IMG/VR virus record: IMGVR_UViG_3300021405_000009
Span: 34,240-98,239 of that record
DNA length: 64,000 bases
Origin: a virus
Reading direction: 5' to 3' (one strand)
This document shows, in pieces, positions 31,568 through 55,158 of the stretch (positions are counted from its first letter, which is position 1; every line of letters starts with the position of its first letter). Under the pieces are notes generated by a model, which saw only the letters and a list, made by a program, of their open reading frames with translations, did not search any database and had not been told where the DNA came from. A program made the position numbers and the translations under genes.

Positions 31568-31604
31568 AAGCCACAGGGATTTCACATCTTGTGGCTTTGT
31601 TTTT
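31568..31604 (+). terminator. Intrinsic terminator between convergent genes
   Basis: AAGCCACAGGGAT-ttcac-ATCTTGTGGCTT-TGTTTTT. Confidence 0.6.
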
Positions 31605-32401
31605 CACAGTCGATACCTCATCTCCCAGTGGCGGCGATACGCGTCGGCAATCACGCGCGAGACGAAGTTGCGATCGATCTCCGGCTGCAGCGGCGAGCTG
31701 GCTTCGGCCGCACGGCAAATCTCCGAGCGCTCGGTCGCATTGCGGATGACCCAATCCTCCGTGTACTCGCCGTTGCGAATAGCGATCAACAGATCTTTCT
31801 GCGGAGAGGGTAGCGTGATGATCCCGCTGCGCATCAGTTCTTCGCACTCGATCAGCAGCCGGATGATGTGCATGGCGAACTTGGTGTCGTAGCCGTACTT
31901 CGCGACCAGGTCGGGCCGATTCACGTTGCGGCTACGCTCGCCCGTCATGCGCATCAACTGCGCGGTCGCGAAGCCCAGGAATTGTTTGTAGTGCTTCCGG
32001 CACAGGAACTGCAGACGATATTTCTCGACGGCATGGAACCAGGTGTCGAACGCACCGGCTGGCACCGGCAGCGCATTCTTCGCGAAGATGGCGTGCAGGA
32101 TGCTGGGGTTCCCCTTGCAGGCCAGGTGCGCCCATTTCTGCAGCCCGTAGAGCGTGATGTCGATGTCGCTGGAATCGTTCTTGCGTTCATTCGTGCTGGT
32201 GGACCAGACGAAGTGTTCATAGCTATCGACGCCGATGATTTTTTCTGGCGGCTCGACGTAGACGCCATAGATGTCGAGATCGTCATAGCCGGAGACTTTC
32301 GCCCCGTGCAGGGCGGAGCCACCCACGAACAGGTGGATGATCTCCGTCCAGTACGGGAACTTCGCTGCCTTCACGTGGTCGAGCAGTGCGCTATCGACCA
32401 T
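31604..32401 (-). CDS. RlaP-like DNA polymerase beta superfamily nucleotidyltransferase
   Basis: GGSALHG...DDLDIYGVY, DITLY, KGNPS, GYDTKFAMHIIRL motifs of the YcgL/RlaP family. Confidence 0.8.
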   Translation of the reverse strand: MVDSALLDHVKAAKFPYWTEIIHLFVGGSALHGAKVSGYDDLDIYGVYVEPPEKIIGVDSYEHFVWSTSTNERKNDSSDIDITLYGLQKWAHLACKGNPSILHAIFAKNALPVPAGAFDTWFHAVEKYRLQFLCRKHYKQFLGFATAQLMRMTGERSRNVNRPDLVAKYGYDTKFAMHIIRLLIECEELMRSGIITLPSPQKDLLIAIRNGEYTEDWVIRNATERSEICRAAEASSPLQPEIDRNFVSRVIADAYRRHWEMRYRL

Positions 32402-33047
32402 TGCCGTTCCCGTTCTCCAGCAGCAGCATCACGCGCTCTACGCCGATGGCGAAGCCGAAGCCCCGATCGTAGGGACCTCCGGCGCACACCTGCTTCTGGG
32501 CTCCCAGTTGGTCGCAGTTAATTTCAAAACCGTCGCCGGTGTAGTAGGCGTAGCGGGGTTTGACGGCGGTGTTGAGGTTGAATTTTTTAGTGAAGACGGT
32601 CATCATCCGCGTGGCTAACTCGATGAAGAGTTCGCGCTGAGCGTCGGGATTGGTCGGGTTTAGAATCTCGACGCCGAACTGCGTGAACTCATGATACCTG
32701 CCCATCTGGGGCCGTTCATTACGCCAGCATTTCGTGATATAGAACACTCTCACGTCGCGGCGAGCCTTCCAGAGCGTGCTGGCAATCAGTCTGCATGTGA
32801 TGGTTCCTTCCGGCCGCAGACAGATACTTCTGGCAGTGGACGGCTCCGGGAATGAATACATGTGACGAAGCGCTTCTTCCTCGCCCTGGTACAGCTCGGT
32901 CAGATCGAGGATGGGGAGTTGGATTTCGCGCGCCCCGAAAACTTCGGCGATGGGGGTGAGTGTATTGCATATTCTGCGGTACCTCTCGGCGTGTTCGTAT
33001 ACCAAAACGCGCGTGCCGCGCGGCGCAAGCTTCAGATGTAAGTCCAC
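32391..33047 (-). CDS. Minimal histidyl-tRNA-synthetase-like protein (class II catalytic core only)
   Basis: PRGT, motif 1 (EIQLPIL), LRPEGT, motif 2 WRNERPQMGRYHEFTQFGVE, YYTG, GGPYD, motif 3 GFAIGVER; only 218 aa, no anticodon-binding domain. Confidence 0.85.
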   Translation of the reverse strand: MDLHLKLAPRGTRVLVYEHAERYRRICNTLTPIAEVFGAREIQLPILDLTELYQGEEEALRHMYSFPEPSTARSICLRPEGTITCRLIASTLWKARRDVRVFYITKCWRNERPQMGRYHEFTQFGVEILNPTNPDAQRELFIELATRMMTVFTKKFNLNTAVKPRYAYYTGDGFEINCDQLGAQKQVCAGGPYDRGFGFAIGVERVMLLLENGNGNGR

Positions 33048-39702: not shown

Positions 39703-39921
39703 TTACGCGTTGTCCTTTTCGAGGAACGAATTCGACACGATCTTCAACTGCACGCGGCCGAGGCCACGCTCGTGGCGCTCAATCAGCGGCTCGATCACTA
39801 CACCCTCGCGGATGTTGGTTGCGCCCGCCACCATCGACTTACCTTCCGCCAGAGCCTTCACCATGGCCGAATCGAACGGGCCGATATGTAGAACGGGAAC
39901 TACTTCGATGCCGTCAGACAT
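39703..39921 (-). CDS. C-terminal part of the RNA ligase (motifs IV and V), in a different frame
   Basis: GIEVVPVLHIGPF...IREGVVIEP...GRVQLKIVS; has its own GGAGGA and ATG at 39921. Confidence 0.7.
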   Translation of the reverse strand: MSDGIEVVPVLHIGPFDSAMVKALAEGKSMVAGATNIREGVVIEPLIERHERGLGRVQLKIVSNSFLEKDNA

Positions 39922-40997
39922 TCGAGCTTCTCCTCCAGAGGGGCGGAGCGAATGCGGCCCACTAACATCGGGTCCACTTCTTCCTGCCACAGATTGTTAA
40001 TGTTGACGGTGGTCATCTTCGGCGCCCAGCCGTGCGGGCCGAGAATATCGAAGAGGAAGAACCGCACCTTGCCCGGCTCAGCGCCGTAGCGGAACTTGTC
40101 GCCCTGGGTTGGCACCACTTCGCCATAGAGCGTGTAGCCAGGATGTTCGCGGCACCACTGCTCGATGGCGGGATTCTGTTCGAGCGCATCGCGCCACACA
40201 CACTTCGCGCCGGGGCTCTTCCACATGGTGCGCGAGCCCACATACATCACGCCGTCTTCGAAGGTGTAGCGGGCGTTCGAGCCGTGGATCTTCTCGGTCA
40301 CGATTACCTGCTCGCCTTCGTGCAGCGCGTGTGGATAATTCTTGAAGCCTTCCACGTCATAGACGCGGCGGTCTTCCTTGGGACCGCGCTGGCTATGGCC
40401 GCCAGTGTTCCCGTTCGGGCGAAAGCCCAGCAACTCCAGCAGCCAGTACCACCAGCCCATCAGCGAACGAGGCCAGCCGGTGCGCTGCTGGCGCGCCTGC
40501 CGAGTGTCGAGACTCTGGGGCTCGGGCGGCTGATAGTGCGAGATGCCCATGGCGGTAGAAAGGTCATCGCCTTCCTTGGGGCTGCGAACGGTCGAAGCAT
40601 CATAGATGCGCACCCAGTTCGGGATCTGAACCAGCAAACCTTCCGACCATTCCTTGCGAAACTTGCGCGGGATCACACGCCGGTGCTTGACGGGGATGTC
40701 GTCGTTCTCGGTAAAACCCTTACCAGCCCACATGAAGGCGAATTGCTCGGAGTTCGGCACCACGCTGTCGGGCTGTACATAAACAGCCAGGTCGCCGACT
40801 TCGAACTCACCCAGCTTCACAACGATCTGGTAGCCGTCCACCTGCACAATGCCCAGGGTGTCGGCGTTGGGGTGTTTCAGAATCTCCGCAATGCGGACAA
40901 CGGGGGCCTGGTGACTTTTTTTCTTCGTCTCTTTGTCCTGGTCGCGATCCAGCTCTGGGATCTTGCCGTAAAGGCCGTCAATGGCAACGCTGCTCAT
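39900..40997 (-). CDS. ATP-dependent RNA ligase, DRB0094/Rnl2-like (N-terminal and central part)
   Basis: N-terminal OB domain (HPNADTL...GDLAVY..PDSVVP), motif I TEKIHGSN, GSR, YGEV, FFLFDI; motifs IV and V are missing from this frame. Confidence 0.85.
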   Translation of the reverse strand: MSSVAIDGLYGKIPELDRDQDKETKKKSHQAPVVRIAEILKHPNADTLGIVQVDGYQIVVKLGEFEVGDLAVYVQPDSVVPNSEQFAFMWAGKGFTENDDIPVKHRRVIPRKFRKEWSEGLLVQIPNWVRIYDASTVRSPKEGDDLSTAMGISHYQPPEPQSLDTRQARQQRTGWPRSLMGWWYWLLELLGFRPNGNTGGHSQRGPKEDRRVYDVEGFKNYPHALHEGEQVIVTEKIHGSNARYTFEDGVMYVGSRTMWKSPGAKCVWRDALEQNPAIEQWCREHPGYTLYGEVVPTQGDKFRYGAEPGKVRFFLFDILGPHGWAPKMTTVNINNLWQEEVDPMLVGRIRSAPLEEKLECLTASK

Positions 40998-51720: not shown

Positions 51721-53313
51721 ATGCGATATCTCATTCACCGCGCAGTAGCGATCGGTAACCCGCCCCAGAGTCAGCCGCTGAACGACCGTCAGTCGAAAAA
51801 CAGCGCTGGCGGTTACAGTTTCACTCTGGATAAGTGGGGCAAGCTCGACCGTTTTCTCATCCTAGGCAGCGAAGGTGGCAGTTACTATGCCAGCGAGCAG
51901 AAGCTTACCGAGGAGAATGCCACCAATCTGGCAGCGTGTGTGAAGGAAGATGGCATTAAGGTGGTCAAGCGCATCGTCGAGATCAGCGATGCGGGCCGGG
52001 CTCCGAAGAACGACCCGGCGCTGTTCGCTCTGGCTTACGCCTCGGCGAAGGGCGACGACGACACGCGTAGTGCGGCTCTGGCTGCACTGCCCAAGGTCGC
52101 ACGCATCGGCACGCATCTGTTCCACTTCACCGCCTTCGTCAACACCATGCGAGGCTGGGGCCGTGGACTGCGGAAGGCCGTAGGTAACTGGTATGCCCAA
52201 GCTGGCGAAGAAGATTGGGATCGCCTGGCCGAGCAGGTCACAAAGTACCAACAGCGTGAGGGCTGGAGCCACCGCGATCTACTGCGCCTGGCGCACCCCA
52301 AGCCGACCTGCCGTCCGCACCAGGCAATCGCTAAGTGGGTAGTCAAGGGCGGAGAGTTGAACCAGACCGCGCCCGAGAAGTTGGTGGGCCACGTTGAACT
52401 GCAAGAGGCCACGACGCCGAAGCAGGCCGTGAAGCTCATCACCAAGTACGGGCTCGTGCGCGAGTCCGTGCCCACTGAACTGCTGAAGTCTCCTGAGGTA
52501 TGGGAGGCCCTGCTCGCGCGGATGCCCATGACGGCGATGATTCGCAACCTGGGCAACCTGTCGAAGTGCGGGTTGCTGACTCCATTGAGCGAAGCCTCGA
52601 AGATGGTAGTCGAGCGGCTGAGCGAGGAAGCGCTGCTGAAGAAGGCGCGCGTACATCCGATTCAACTCTTGATCGCGCAAAAGACTTACGGCTCCGGCCA
52701 TGGCAACAAAGGCAAAGGCGAATGGACGCCCGTGCCCCAGGTAGTTGACGCATTAGACGGCGCTTTCTACTCAGCCTTCCAGAACATTATCCCGTCAGGC
52801 AAGCGCTTCTACCTGGGGCTCGATGTGTCGGGCTCGATGTCCTGCGGCGAAGTAGCCGGAGTCAACGACTTCACGCCTCGCGAGGCATCGTCCGCCATGG
52901 CCATGGTCACGGCGCGCAGCGAGCAGAACTACTACGTCGCTGGCTTCCAGGAGCGCATGATCCAGCTCATGATTACGCCGAAGTCGCGGCTCGATCAGAT
53001 CTGCTCTGCTACGGCGAAGCTGCCGTTCGGCTCTACCGATTGCGCCCAGCCCATGCTGGACGCGCTGGCAAAGAAGTTGCCGGTGGACGTGTTCGCGATC
53101 TACACCGACTCCGAGACCTGGAGTGGAACAACGCACCCAACCGTGGCCCTGGAGCGCTACCGCCAGCAGACTGGCATCCCGGCGAAGTTGATTGTCGTCG
53201 GCATGGTGGCCAATCCGTTCACGATCGCCGATCCGAACGATGCTGGCATGTTGGACGTGGTCGGATTCGATTCAGCGACGCCGCAGATCATCTCACAGTT
53301 CGCGGAGGCGTAG
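51721..53313 (+). CDS. rsr: Ro60/Rsr TROVE-domain RNA-binding protein
   Basis: NSAGGY, RFLILGSEGGSYY, GRAPKNDPALFAL, GWGRGLRKAV, KYQQREGWSHRDLLRLAHP, MPMTAMIRNL, RVHP, vWA DVSGSM, TDSETW, DAGMLDVVGFD. Confidence 0.95.
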   Translation: MRYLIHRAVAIGNPPQSQPLNDRQSKNSAGGYSFTLDKWGKLDRFLILGSEGGSYYASEQKLTEENATNLAACVKEDGIKVVKRIVEISDAGRAPKNDPALFALAYASAKGDDDTRSAALAALPKVARIGTHLFHFTAFVNTMRGWGRGLRKAVGNWYAQAGEEDWDRLAEQVTKYQQREGWSHRDLLRLAHPKPTCRPHQAIAKWVVKGGELNQTAPEKLVGHVELQEATTPKQAVKLITKYGLVRESVPTELLKSPEVWEALLARMPMTAMIRNLGNLSKCGLLTPLSEASKMVVERLSEEALLKKARVHPIQLLIAQKTYGSGHGNKGKGEWTPVPQVVDALDGAFYSAFQNIIPSGKRFYLGLDVSGSMSCGEVAGVNDFTPREASSAMAMVTARSEQNYYVAGFQERMIQLMITPKSRLDQICSATAKLPFGSTDCAQPMLDALAKKLPVDVFAIYTDSETWSGTTHPTVALERYRQQTGIPAKLIVVGMVANPFTIADPNDAGMLDVVGFDSATPQIISQFAEA

Positions 53314-53578: not shown

Positions 53579-53648
53579 TGACGGGCCGATAGCAGATCGT
53601 TATCATATGCTTGAAAAACAATTACGGTCTGCGACAACTTGTCCGTCA
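53579..53648 (+). ncRNA. Y-RNA-like unit A (short)
   Basis: TGACG-GGCCGAT-A-GCAGATC-GTTATC-loop-CGGTCTGC-GACAA-CTTGTC-CGTCA. Confidence 0.75.
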
Positions 53649-53657
53649 CCTACTTAC

Positions 53658-53729
53658 ACCGTTGGGCCGCAGTTGGTTCGTTACCTACATTGATTGGAAT
53701 ATACGGACCGACACATTTTGTCTAACGGT
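53658..53729 (+). ncRNA. Y-RNA-like unit B (short)
   Basis: ACCGTTG-GGCCGCA-GTTGGTTC-GTTACC-loop-CGGACCGAC-ACAT-TTTGTC-TAACGGT. Confidence 0.7.
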
Positions 53730-53737
53730 AAATATAT

Positions 53738-53878
53738 GCGAGGGCCGAAGAGAATTGGTTATCCTCCACCTAAGCCGTACCGGGGGAGTAGCTCAATGGT
53801 AGAGCGCCGGACCTGATCAATCCGGAGGTTGCTGGTTCAAGTCCAGTCTCCATACCGATTCTCGTACCTTGTCTTCGC
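53738..53878 (+). ncRNA. Y-RNA-like unit C enclosing a non-permuted tRNA-like fold
   Basis: GCGAG-GGCCGAA-GAGAATTG-GTTATC...[D arm GCTC/GAGC, anticodon arm CCGGA/TCCGG, T arm GCTGG TTCAAGT CCAGT]...CCGATTCTC-GTAC-CTTGTC-TTCGC. Confidence 0.85.
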
Positions 53879-53887
53879 TTCATTTCT

Positions 53888-53952
53888 GCGAGGGTCGAAG
53901 TCGGTCTGTTATCACAATGCAAACAGAGACGGACCGCGTAACTTATCTTCGC
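53888..53952 (+). ncRNA. Y-RNA-like unit D (short)
   Basis: GCGAG-GGTCGAA-GTCGGTCT-GTTATC-loop-CGGACCGC-GTAA-CTTATC-TTCGC. Confidence 0.8.
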
Positions 53953-53971
53953 TTCATGTTTCACTTGTAAG

Positions 53972-54110
53972 TGCGAGGGCCGAAGCTAGCTGGTTATCTT
54001 GGAACTCTATGTCGTTGGTTCGATTCCAACCGTCCTGGTTCTCCAGGCGTAGTTCAGTGGTAGAACAAGAGTGGCGAAAGCCATTTCCGGCTACATCACT
54101 TGTCTTCGCA
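53972..54110 (+). ncRNA. YrlA-type Y RNA unit E (circularly permuted tRNA mimic)
   Basis: Scaffold plus ACTCT..T arm GTTGG TTCGATT CCAAC, closed acceptor CCTGG-ttct-CCAGG, D arm GTTC AGTGGTA GAAC, AGAGT, and an extra TGGC-GAAA-GCCA hairpin. Confidence 0.9.
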
Positions 54111-54158
54111 TGAAATCCCTGGCCGGGTACTATCTGAGGCATCCGGCCAGTAAAACAG

Positions 54159-54303
54159 AAAGAGAGCGGGCCGAAAGCTGGTTGGTTATCTACTGCTAAT
54201 AGAGAGGTCGCGGGTTCGAGTCCCGCTGGCACCTTCGGGTGCTATAGCTCAGTTGGCTAGAGCGCTAAAACACCGATTGGCATAGAACTTGTCCGCTCTC
54301 TTT
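54159..54303 (+). ncRNA. YrlA-type Y RNA unit F (permuted tRNA mimic retaining an anticodon hairpin)
   Basis: AAAGAGAGCG-GGCCGAA..GTTATC; TCTA CTGCTAA TAGA; T arm GCGGG TTCGAGT CCCGC; acceptor TGGCACC TTCG GGTGCTA; D arm GCTC AGTTGGCTA GAGC; CTTGTC-CGCTCTCTTT followed by a T-tract. Confidence 0.9.
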
Positions 54304-54342: not shown

Positions 54343-55158
54343 ATGCCAACTCTCTGCTTTGTCGGCGACGTGCATGGAAACTTAACGCAGATGTACGCCG
54401 CTCTGATGGCGTGGATGGAGCGTAGTTACACTAAGATCGATGCCGTCGTTCAGGTTGGCGATCTCGGCGTATACCGCCGTGGTACCACCTGGTCTTCCAT
54501 GTTCTTCAAGGGCGTGCCCTCGCCGATCCCGACCTGGGCCTGCATGGGCAACCATGAAGATCCGCTCGCGATCCGCGACTGGCAGAACGAGCCCGACCGA
54601 ATTCCTAACATGCACCTGATGCCGGATGGCGAGATCACCAGCGTTCTCGGCGTCCAGATCGGCGTTGTGTGGGGCAACTACAGCCCGATTAGTTGGCTTG
54701 ATCCTGGCCGTGTACACAAGGCGCGCGCTGTGGGCGGCGAGTCCGCGCGGATCGCTATGCACATCGACCACGCTGCTGTTACCCGCCTGATGGATTTATA
54801 CCAGCGCTGCGGCGATCACATGGATGTGCTAGTCACGCATGACTCTGCGGCGTCCACACTGCCGGTACAGTTTCGCGGCAAGGGCATGGACTCCTTCATC
54901 AAAGGGCAGCTCGGCCTTACTGATAACGAAGAGTCTGGCGGCTGCCACGGCTTCAACTCGCTGCTCAAGGCATTTCAGCCCGATGAATATTTCTTTGGCC
55001 ACCTGCACTGTTATGACGAAGGCATGATTGGCCGCACGCATTACACCTGCCTGAACGCGATCGGCTACGAAGGTGGCCCGTGGTTCAAGGTGATGGAGTT
55101 CCCAGACGTGGCGGGGCCGCTGTCTGGGGGTATCAACATTCTCGGGGGAGGTTCTTAA
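54343..55158 (+). CDS. Calcineurin-like metallophosphoesterase
   Basis: GDVHG, VGDLG, GNHE, THD, GHLH motifs. Confidence 0.9.
   Translation: MPTLCFVGDVHGNLTQMYAALMAWMERSYTKIDAVVQVGDLGVYRRGTTWSSMFFKGVPSPIPTWACMGNHEDPLAIRDWQNEPDRIPNMHLMPDGEITSVLGVQIGVVWGNYSPISWLDPGRVHKARAVGGESARIAMHIDHAAVTRLMDLYQRCGDHMDVLVTHDSAASTLPVQFRGKGMDSFIKGQLGLTDNEESGGCHGFNSLLKAFQPDEYFFGHLHCYDEGMIGRTHYTCLNAIGYEGGPWFKVMEFPDVAGPLSGGINILGGGS

What the first reader, a model, noticed from the sequence alone, without database searches (positions are those of the whole stretch)
54159..54303. Permuted tRNA mimic that keeps all four arms, including a canonical anticodon loop (CU-GCU-AA, Ser)
Seen: the order is anticodon hairpin (TCTA-CTGCTAA-TAGA), variable loop (GAGGTC), T arm, a 7-bp acceptor sealed by a cUUCGg tetraloop, then D arm. 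The tRNA is opened between the D and anticodon arms. In unit E, as in the usual YrlA model, the anticodon stem is the connector to the Ro-binding stem and no closed anticodon loop exists. Inference: an unchargeable tRNA-Ser(GCU) look-alike exposing an intact anticodon loop would suit a decoy for anticodon nucleases or tRNA-modifying enzymes. Alternatively it is a permuted precursor that the phage ligase could mature.
Basis: partly seen in the sequence, partly recalled or inferred. Interest (0 to 1): 0.8.

Follow-up and report, generated by a model that had tools for sequence, protein, structure and literature searches.

The report
Phage Y RNA with anticodon-like arm
This is a phage copy of a known small RNA (a YrlA-type Y RNA, partner of the Ro60 protein) that imitates a rearranged tRNA. 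Its extra hairpin, drawn in the literature as a "variable arm", looks in this RNA and in dozens of relatives like a genuine anticodon arm.

Summary
Window 54159-54303 is the last of six Y-RNA-like units, starting 846 nt downstream of a phage Ro60 (TROVE+vWA) gene.

It reads: Ro-binding stem, GGUUAUC box, hairpin UCUA-CUGCUAA-UAGA, G-AGGUC, T arm, 7-bp acceptor closed by UUCG, U8-A9, D arm, an 8-9-nt linker, then back into the stem.

The hairpin is not chance. Among 90 non-identical Ro-linked permuted tRNA-like units from phages and bacteria:
- Stems of at least 4 bp peak sharply at a 7-nt loop placed 4-5 nt before the T stem (28 units against 5.9±2.2 in shuffles).
- The loops read Y32-U33-NNN-R37-A38.
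- G37 occurs only after G36, as I recall for bacterial tRNAs.
- The stems covary.

The family is known: YrlA (Chen et al. 2014). That paper drew this hairpin as a less-conserved "V" stem-loop. M. smegmatis YrlA, which is Rsr-bound, RNase P-cleaved and CCA-tailed, shows the same layout.

So this is a new member of a known kind, with a better-supported reading of one arm. About 57% of the units are of this "closed" type.

"Ser" is nominal: the body is class I and the triplets vary freely among relatives. The decoy and ligase-maturation ideas remain untested. The scan has flagged YrlA-type mimics on other DNA before.

The parts
51721..53313 (+). Phage Ro60 orthologue (TROVE + Ro60 vWA), 530 aa
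   Evidence: Pfam PF05731 1.4e-43 and PF25045 3.8e-63
54161..54171 (+). 5' strand of the outer (Ro-binding) stem. It overlaps the GNCGAAN(0-1)G motif GCCGAAAG at 54170-54177.
   Evidence: Direct reading. Pairs with 54291-54301 in all folds. Motif as defined in PMC4201824.
54177..54185 (+). 5' strand of the upper Y stem, GCUGGUUGG
   Evidence: Pairs with 54273-54281. The pairs are kept through one-sided and two-sided changes in six relatives.
54184..54190 (+). GGUUAUC box (the conserved YUAY motif of YrlA). Its last bases start the hairpin stem.
   Evidence: Conserved in nearly all units; PMC4201824
54189..54203 (+). Anticodon-arm-like hairpin: UCUA / loop CUGCUAA (54193-54199) / UAGA. A54188 and G54204 form an A·G mismatch at position 27·43.
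54205..54209 (+). Variable loop AGGUC (positions 44-48), ending in C48
   Evidence: Base 48 matches base 15 as a Levitt pair (G:C or A:U) in 45 of 51 closed units
54210..54226 (+). T arm: GCGGG UUCGAGU CCCGC
   Evidence: cmscan alignments to YrlA and tmRNA
54227..54244 (+). Closed acceptor stem: 7 bp (UGGCACC/GGUGCUA) with a UUCG loop. RNase P is predicted to cut between 54237 and 54238.
   Evidence: Direct reading. The RNase P site is inferred by analogy with M. smegmatis YrlA (PMC4201824).
54245..54263 (+). U8-A9 and the D arm: GCUC AGUUGGCUA GAGC
54264..54272 (+). G26 and the unpaired linker CUAAAACA, which leads out of the tRNA core. This is the break between D arm and anticodon arm.
   Evidence: This linker is mostly 5-13 nt in closed units, against 1 nt in open units
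54273..54281 (+). 3' strand of the upper Y stem, CCGAUUGGC
54291..54301 (+). 3' strand of the outer stem, GUCCGCUCUCU, followed by a U run (to about 54310) that probably ends the transcript
   Evidence: Direct reading. The consensus terminator scan did not list it because the stem is long-range.
53972..54110 (+). Unit E, the neighbouring 'open' YrlA. Its anticodon stem (ACUCU/AGAGU) is formed between the two connector strands.
   Evidence: RF02553 35.4 bits

Best explanation
Unit F is a phage-encoded YrlA-type Y RNA, probably made from one transcript with the Ro60 gene and five other Y-like units.

Its basal stem, with the GNCGAA motif, docks on the phage Ro60 ring. This is inferred from the family.

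The rest folds as a circularly permuted but complete class I tRNA body: T arm, 7-bp acceptor closed by UUCG, U8-A9, D arm, a 5-nt variable loop, and a closed anticodon-arm-like hairpin. The Ro-binding stem is inserted at the 26/27 junction instead of in the anticodon loop.

The hairpin is a conserved, selected part of this 'closed' YrlA class. It is the same element that the literature drew as a 'V' stem-loop.

By analogy with M. smegmatis YrlA, host RNase P probably nicks the acceptor loop 5' of G54238, and a CCA end may be added.

The module most likely presents a faithful whole-tRNA shape, including a U-turn anticodon loop, to tRNA-binding host or phage factors tethered to Ro60 in RNA decay or repair.

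Shown here: sequence anatomy, conservation, covariation and loop rules. Inferred: Ro binding, L-shape, processing and effector recruitment.
For: Context and family:
- The Ro60 gene lies 846 nt upstream on the same strand.
- RF02553 (YrlA) matches at 41.2 bits, E 2e-7.
- The GNCGAAN(0-1)G and YUAY motifs are present (PMC4201824).

The same layout next to Ro genes elsewhere:
- Gordonia, Mycobacterium and Xanthomonas phages; Microbacterium phage Big4 has the same layout, but its Ro gene was not located.
- 42 IMG/VR loci and 80 bacterial loci.

The hairpin:
- Sharp peak at a 7-nt loop and a 4-5-nt spacer: 28 of 90 units against 5.9±2.2 in shuffles.
- Covarying stem.
- Loop frame Y32 86%, U33 84%, R37 95%, A38 86%.
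- G37 only after G36: 10 of 13 against 0 of 30.
- 15:48 Levitt-compatible in 45 of 51 closed units.
- The D-to-Y-stem linker is mostly 5-13 nt in closed units.
- The un-permuted unit is called a tRNA by ARAGORN.

Precedent: M. smegmatis YrlA is Rsr-bound, RNase P-cut and CCA-tailed, and its primer sequence shows ..CA-CUUCUAA-UGG-AAUGGUC-GC.. (PMC4201824).
Against: - The unit scores below Rfam's gathering threshold (41.2 against 69).
- The hairpin adds only -1.1 kcal/mol and is absent from the MFE fold.
- RNAalifold on six close relatives places the hairpin in a shifted register because of GA repeats.
- Only 3-4 of the 5 stem positions pair, and 27·43 is usually A·G.
- As a secondary structure, the five-helix junction is the same as a class II tRNA with a variable arm. 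Which helix stacks on the D stem cannot be decided from sequence.
- The closed set was picked by pairing, so its percentage of paired cells is circular. Relatedness was not corrected for in the Fisher test.
- There are no expression, binding or processing data for this RNA.
Confidence: 0.8

Rival explanations
1. Decoy or sensor. The exposed, authentic-looking anticodon loop competes with host tRNAs for anticodon nucleases or anticodon-loop modification enzymes, protecting translation during infection. This would add to the best explanation rather than replace it.
For: - The loops obey tRNA-specific rules (U33, R37, G36 with G37), as if read by the same enzymes.
- Many loops equal canonical isoacceptor loops, such as CUGCUAA, CUUUUAA, CUCAUAA, CUGAUAA and CUUCUAA.
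- The phage carries RNA-repair genes: an Rnl-like ligase, RlaP, a metallophosphoesterase next to the array, and a HisRS-like core.
- Competitive inhibition of an anticodon nuclease was proposed for S. Typhimurium YrlA (PMC7790460).
Against: - No nuclease, host or target is known for this virus.
- The triplets vary widely (27 in 43 units). They include A34 triplets and UCA, which match no normal bacterial tRNA.
- The stem is shorter than a real anticodon stem.
- The same class is common in bacterial chromosomes, where a phage-style decoy role is less obvious.
Confidence: 0.2
2. Published reading. The hairpin is a variable-arm equivalent (V), the upper Y stem is the anticodon stem, and no anticodon-arm mimic exists.
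For: - Chen et al. 2014 modelled YrlA this way (PMC4201824).
- In the S. Typhimurium crystal structure the connector is the anticodon stem (bioRxiv 10.1101/312249).
- The helix order around the junction is the same as in class II tRNAs.
Against: - As I recall, variable arms have 3-5-nt loops and 1-2 nt before the T stem. Here the loop is 7 nt with Y-U-NNN-R-A, and 4-5 nt of AGGUC-type variable loop follow.
- The D stem is joined to the Y stem by 5-13 nt rather than 1 nt.
- S. Typhimurium YrlA is of the open type and has no such hairpin.
Confidence: 0.15
3. Alternative fold without the hairpin. UGCUAAU (54194-54200) pairs with AUUGGCA (54276-54282), as in the Rfam alignment.
For: There are 7 complementary bases in the window, and cmscan aligns them this way.
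Against: - This fold is 6 kcal/mol worse than the cloverleaf model (-47.0 against -53.2).
- It competes with the conserved upper Y stem.
- The complementarity is absent in BearBQ, L007, L027, Big4 and L023-L026.
Confidence: 0.04
4. Permuted pre-tRNA. The Y stem is excised, the phage ligase joins 26 to 27, and RNase P opens the acceptor, giving a decoding tRNA(GCU).
For: - The un-permuted sequence is a clean cloverleaf.
- The phage has an Rnl-like ligase.
- Permuted tRNA genes exist in algae and archaea (discussed in 10.1101/312249).
Against: - The record has no splicing endonuclease and no RtcB.
- A GCU anticodon on a class I body would not be a Ser tRNA.
- The triplets in relatives include ones not used for decoding.
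- The Ro-binding motifs are conserved, which shows that the Y stem is itself functional.
Confidence: 0.03

Closest known systems
Mycobacterium smegmatis YrlA and mycobacteriophage (cluster C, e.g. ET08) YrlA RNAs (Chen et al. 2014, RNA 20:1715, PMC4201824)
   Same: - Encoded beside Ro60/Rsr on the same strand.
- GNCGAA motif and YUAY box.
- T arm, then closed 7-bp acceptor, then D arm.
- A hairpin just upstream of the T arm. The M. smegmatis primer reads CA-CUUCUAA-UGG. Cluster C phage Asterius has CUC-AUUGCAA-GAG, and the unit aligns at 82% identity over bases 12-71.
   Different: - The paper labels the hairpin a less-conserved variable arm, not an anticodon arm.
- Here the unit lies downstream of Ro60 as the last of six Y-like units.
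- Processing and Ro binding are untested for this RNA.
Salmonella Typhimurium YrlA (Rfam RF02553; crystal structure 6CU1, Wang et al. 2018, bioRxiv 10.1101/312249)
   Same: Same family: a permuted tRNA-like domain with D, T and acceptor elements and the same tertiary-contact nucleotides, on a Ro-binding stem.
   Different: - S. Typhimurium YrlA is the 'open' type. The anticodon stem is the connector, there is no anticodon loop, and the acceptor has 6 bp and is not cut by RNase P.
- Unit F scores only 41 bits against the Rfam model, whose threshold is 69 bits.
Circularly permuted and split tRNA genes of red algae and archaea (as discussed in 10.1101/312249)
   Same: The 3' half is encoded before the 5' half, the acceptor is initially closed, and a long helix is formed by the transcript ends.
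   Different: - Those are matured by a bulge-helix-bulge endonuclease and a ligase into decoding tRNAs.
- Here there is no such endonuclease, the helix carries Ro60-binding motifs, and the triplets are not those of decoding tRNAs.
Thermus phage phiLo Ro60 with Yrl1/Yrl2 (NAR 2025, PMC12135203)
   Same: A phage Ro60 with several phage-encoded Y-like RNAs next to the gene. A proposed role is hijacking host PNPase.
   Different: As I read the passages retrieved, those Yrl RNAs are described as stem-bulge-stem Y RNAs, and no tRNA-like domain was mentioned.

Membership tests
YrlA (Y RNA-like A; Chen et al. 2014; Rfam RF02553) | Encoded within about 4 kb of a Ro60/TROVE gene on the same strand | tested here: met
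   Ro60 lies at 51721-53313 (+) and the unit starts at 54159 (+)
YrlA (Y RNA-like A; Chen et al. 2014; Rfam RF02553) | GNCGAAN(0-1)G motif near the 5' end, within a stem formed by the 5' and 3' ends | tested here: met
   GCCGAAAG at 54170-54177; 11-bp terminal stem
YrlA (Y RNA-like A; Chen et al. 2014; Rfam RF02553) | T-arm-like and D-arm-like stem-loops in the order T, closed acceptor, D, with the tRNA tertiary-contact nucleotides | tested here: met
   cmscan alignment. U8, A14, G15:C48, G18G19 and the UUCGAGU T loop read directly. 15:48 compatible in 45 of 51 closed units.
YrlA (Y RNA-like A; Chen et al. 2014; Rfam RF02553) | Score at or above the Rfam gathering threshold (69 bits) | tested here: not met
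   41.2 bits, E 2e-7. The Rfam model has the open architecture and forces mismatched pairs on the hairpin segment.
YrlA (Y RNA-like A; Chen et al. 2014; Rfam RF02553) | Bound by Ro60/Rsr in vivo | not testable with these tools
   Needs immunoprecipitation or a gel-shift assay with the phage Ro60
Canonical tRNA (RF00005) | Continuous acceptor-D-anticodon-T order with free 5' and 3' acceptor ends | tested here: not met
   ARAGORN and Rfam tRNA call nothing at 54159-54303. Only the computationally un-permuted sequence is called a tRNA.
Canonical tRNA (RF00005) | 5-bp anticodon stem, 7-nt loop with U33 and R37, and a 4-5-nt variable loop before the T stem | tested here: inconclusive
   The loop and the spacer are met. 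The stem has only 4 bp plus an A·G mismatch.
Bacterial tRNA-Ser | Class II body with a long variable arm (established knowledge) | tested here: not met
   The variable region is the 5-nt AGGUC. Only the triplet GCU is Ser-like.
Permuted pre-tRNA genes (algal and archaeal type) | A splicing endonuclease and ligase pathway that rejoins the halves | tested here: not met
   No tRNA_int_endo and no RtcB in the 98-kb record, which is 77% complete. An Rnl-like ligase is present.

The most novel reading that the evidence does not exclude
Most YrlA Y RNAs, this phage copy included, are complete four-arm tRNA mimics. Their anticodon loops are kept tRNA-like (U33, R37, G37 only after G36) because anticodon-loop enzymes read them. 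Each closed unit would then imitate one isoacceptor, here tRNA(GCU). It would serve as a Ro60-tethered decoy or sensor for anticodon nucleases or modification enzymes in phage-host conflict.
Probability: 0.15. Interest if true: 0.8.

Novelty: new member of a known kind. Interest (0 to 1): 0.4.

Why it matters
YrlA RNAs are described as mimics of only the D, T and acceptor arms, and their effector is still unknown.

In my sample of 90 Ro-linked units from phages and bacteria, 51 also carry a conserved hairpin at the anticodon-arm position that follows anticodon-loop sequence rules. If that holds in a wider sample:
- The candidate partners widen to proteins that read the anticodon stem-loop, such as anticodon nucleases, TsaD, TrmD or MiaA-type enzymes, and repair ligases.
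- The idea that YrlA arose from tRNA dimers gains a concrete footprint: positions 27-76 of one tRNA plus positions 1-26 of the next.
- It becomes clear why genome annotators keep calling spurious tRNA genes at these loci.

For this window itself the result is ordinary. It is one more phage YrlA beside Ro60.

Tried and rejected
- **Single-sequence folding**. The MFE fold pairs UCUA with the D-arm UAGA and does not show the hairpin, so thermodynamics alone is uninformative.
- **Rfam at gathering thresholds** finds only tRNA-Ile. YrlA appears only with the E-value threshold.
- **MAFFT alignment anchored on GGUUAYC** (A1) put the hairpins out of register and was not used for counting. I used 17-nt ungapped segments instead (A2). 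Those rows were selected for pairing, so only the pair-type diversity is informative there.
- **RNAalifold on six relatives** gave a shifted register in the GA-repeat subgroup.
- **Loops compared with ARAGORN-called tRNAs in the same loci**. 23 of 49 were identical, against 15.2±2.7 in a column-shuffled null. I discounted this because the ARAGORN set is contaminated (U33 in only 83%).
- **The rival pairing UGCUAAU/AUUGGCA** was rejected as not conserved.
- **Maturation machinery.** The record has no RtcB, AAA_33 kinase, splicing endonuclease or CCA-adding enzyme.
- **Two reviews were not held**: Sim & Wolin 2018 and Sim et al. 2020. I cannot exclude that they already call this hairpin anticodon-like.
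- **No covariance model was built.** The register matrix answered the question without fitting sequences to a structure.

Full report
**What is there**

The window comes from a 98-kb uncultivated virus record. ORF 51721-53313 (+) is a Ro60 orthologue: TROVE 1.4e-43 and Ro60 vWA 3.8e-63. From about 53580 to 54303 it is followed by six tightly spaced Y-RNA-like units. Each has a terminal stem carrying GNCGAA, an inner stem and a GGUUAYC box.

- Outer stem 54161-54171 / 54291-54301.
- GCCGAAAG at 54170-54177.
- Upper stem 54177-54185 / 54273-54281.
- UUA, then the hairpin UCUA-CUGCUAA-UAGA (54189-54203).
- G + AGGUC (54204-54209).
- T arm (54210-54226).
- A 7-bp acceptor closed by UUCG (54227-54244).
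- U8-A9 and the D arm (54245-54263).
- G26 and the 8-nt linker CUAAAACA, then back into the stems, and a U run.

All the classical tertiary-contact bases are present: U8, A14, G15:C48, G18G19, G26/A44, C13-G22-G46 and the T-loop bases. ARAGORN and Rfam tRNA do not call the unit. Rfam YrlA matches at 41.2 bits (E 2e-7), below the gathering score of 69. Its alignment forces the hairpin segment into mismatched long-range pairs.

**Is the hairpin real?**

On its own it is weak. It adds -1.1 kcal/mol, and the MFE fold uses other pairs. A rival pairing, UGCUAAU with AUUGGCA, is 6 kcal/mol worse and is not conserved.

The comparative evidence is decisive. I fetched the following:
- Annotated actinophage relatives: BearBQ, Cashline, prophiT37-1, the cluster C phage Asterius and Big4.
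- 42 viral Ro60 loci.
- 80 bacterial Ro60 loci from many phyla.
- A Xanthomonas phage group with an unannotated, divergent Ro60.

A pattern scan for T arm, closed acceptor and D arm gave 90 non-identical units. I counted units with at least 4 contiguous pairs for every combination of loop length and distance to the T stem. The count peaks sharply at a 7-nt loop and a 4-5-nt spacer: 12 + 16 = 28 units. Every other cell holds 0-10, and composition-preserving shuffles give 5.9±2.2, with a maximum of 14 in 500.

Close relatives keep the hairpin through compensatory changes: CUA/UAG here, CUC/GAG in BearBQ, CGC/GCG in Big4, and CCG/CGG, CCA/UGG and CCU/AGG elsewhere. The three loop-proximal pairs each show 3-5 pair types (that set was selected for pairing, so only the diversity counts).

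**It looks like an anticodon arm, not a variable arm**

In 43 closed units that carry the GGUUAYC box, the loop reads as follows:
- Y32 in 86%.
- U33 in 84%.
- Free at positions 34-36, with 27 different triplets.
- R37 in 95%.
- A38 in 86%.

G37 occurs only after G36: 10 of 13 against 0 of 30, Fisher 1.5e-7, not corrected for relatedness. As I recall, this is the rule for bacterial tRNAs (m1G37 by TrmD needs G36-G37).

Further points in the same direction:
- The 4-5 nt after the hairpin are typical class I variable loops (AGGUC, UGGUC). Their last base matches D-loop base 15 as a Levitt pair in 45 of 51 units.
- The D stem is joined to the Y stem by mostly 5-13 nt in closed units. In 'open' units such as unit E it is joined by exactly 1 nt, and there a 5-bp anticodon stem forms between the connector strands.
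- When the two halves are swapped in silico, ARAGORN calls unit F and almost all closed units standard tRNAs.

One caveat applies. As a secondary structure the five-helix junction is the same as a class II tRNA with a variable arm. Only linker lengths and loop features favour the anticodon-arm reading. Which helix stacks on the D stem needs a structure.

**What is known**

Chen et al. 2014 (PMC4201824) defined YrlA in more than 250 bacteria and 22 phages. [quoted passage not shown]

Their M. smegmatis primer reads CAC-UUCUAAU-GG-AAUGGUC-GC, which is the same layout. That RNA is Rsr-bound, cut by RNase P (7-bp acceptor) and CCA-tailed in vivo.

The crystal structure (10.1101/312249) is of the open S. 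Typhimurium type, and the paper states that YrlA 'lacks the anticodon loop'. Later papers that I could read describe mimicry of the D, T and acceptor arms only (PMC8394870, PMC10424219).

So the RNA family and the hairpin are in print. I did not find the reading as a canonical anticodon arm, or the loop rules, but two reviews were not available to me.

In my sample the closed type is the majority: 51 closed, 24 open, 15 unclear. It occurs in both viruses (18 closed, 9 open) and bacteria (33 closed, 15 open). Several loci carry one of each type. So do this window (units E and F) and its nearest relative L007, whose last unit keeps the loop CUGCUAA on a changed stem.

**How it probably works**

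The best-supported account is a Ro60-docked scaffold RNA that displays a whole-tRNA shape. Host RNase P probably nicks it at 54237/54238, as happens in M. smegmatis. These steps are inferred from the family, not shown here.

The phage also encodes an RNA-repair-type set of genes:
- An Rnl-like ligase at 39900-40997 (-).
- An RlaP nucleotidyltransferase at 31604-32401 (-).
- A truncated HisRS-like core at 32391-33047 (-).
- A metallophosphoesterase right after the array, at 54343-55158.

This fits the proposed role of Ro/Y RNPs in tRNA damage and repair (PMC7824862, 10.1101/312249).

Against it, the triplets vary widely and include A34 triplets and UCA, no nuclease or host is known, and the class is common in bacterial chromosomes.

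'Ser' is nominal, because the body is class I. Maturation into a decoding tRNA is unlikely: the record has no splicing endonuclease and no RtcB, and the Ro-binding motifs are conserved.

**Verdict**

This is a new member of a known family, and the conserved hairpin is better read as an anticodon arm. That reading applies to the 51 closed units of 90 in my sample, not to this unit alone.

Earlier notes of this scan record many YrlA-type mimics beside Ro60 on other DNA. One of them is a D-loop-permuted form that keeps an anticodon arm.

Noticed in passing
window 53738-53878: Unit C is a Y-RNA scaffold whose loop holds a whole, non-permuted tRNA-Ile(GAU) (ARAGORN 53782-53856; Rfam tRNA 46.9 bits). 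It has a 5-bp anticodon stem and a 9-nt loop, CCUGAUCAA.
   Followed up: partly
window 54118-54150: An 8-bp GC-rich hairpin (CUGGCCGG...CCGGCCAG, 16-nt loop) lies in the spacer between units E and F, with no U run after it. It may be a processing signal. No match in Rfam.
   Followed up: no
window 31604-33047 (-): An RlaP-family nucleotidyltransferase (PF10127, 1.7e-20) overlaps a 218-aa HisRS-like class II core that lacks an anticodon-binding domain (PF13393, 6.6e-21). Given that related YrlA RNAs receive a CCA end, the pair might act on the Y RNAs.
   Followed up: partly
window 39900-40997 (-) and 54343-55158 (+): An Rnl-like RNA ligase with a PHA02142 OB domain, and a calcineurin-like metallophosphoesterase directly after the Y-RNA array. 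Both are RNA end-healing and sealing candidates.
   Followed up: partly
L132:1960-3968 (Xanthomonas phage 10KY502B, OQ622092.1): About five Y-like units, both open and closed types, lie upstream of a 'hypothetical protein' that is a divergent Ro60 (TROVE 1.1e-10, vWA). The annotated 'tRNA-Thr' is a miscall that uses the closed hairpin of a YrlA unit as its anticodon arm. About a dozen related Xanthomonas and Xylella phages gave the same BLAST hit.
   Followed up: partly
L004:1090-2640 (Microbacterium phage Big4, ON637770.1): A long array of Y-like units is interleaved with tRNA genes. The annotated 'tRNA-Ser(cga)' at locus 2499-2566 overlaps a closed-type YrlA unit (UCGC-CUUGUAA-GCGG). I did not locate the Ro gene.
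   Followed up: no
L007:4640-5215 (IMG/VR UViG, Ro60 64% identical): The same kind of array lies downstream of Ro60: five units, with the open type second and the closed type last. An inserted ORF sits between Ro60 and the array. The last unit keeps the loop CUGCUAA.
   Followed up: partly
window 53972-54109: Unit E also gives a weak match to the nematode stem-bulge RNA family ceN72-3 (RF01656, 15 bits) through GGUUAUC and ACUUGUC. The scaffold motifs of these phage units therefore resemble those of animal Y and sbRNAs.
   Followed up: no
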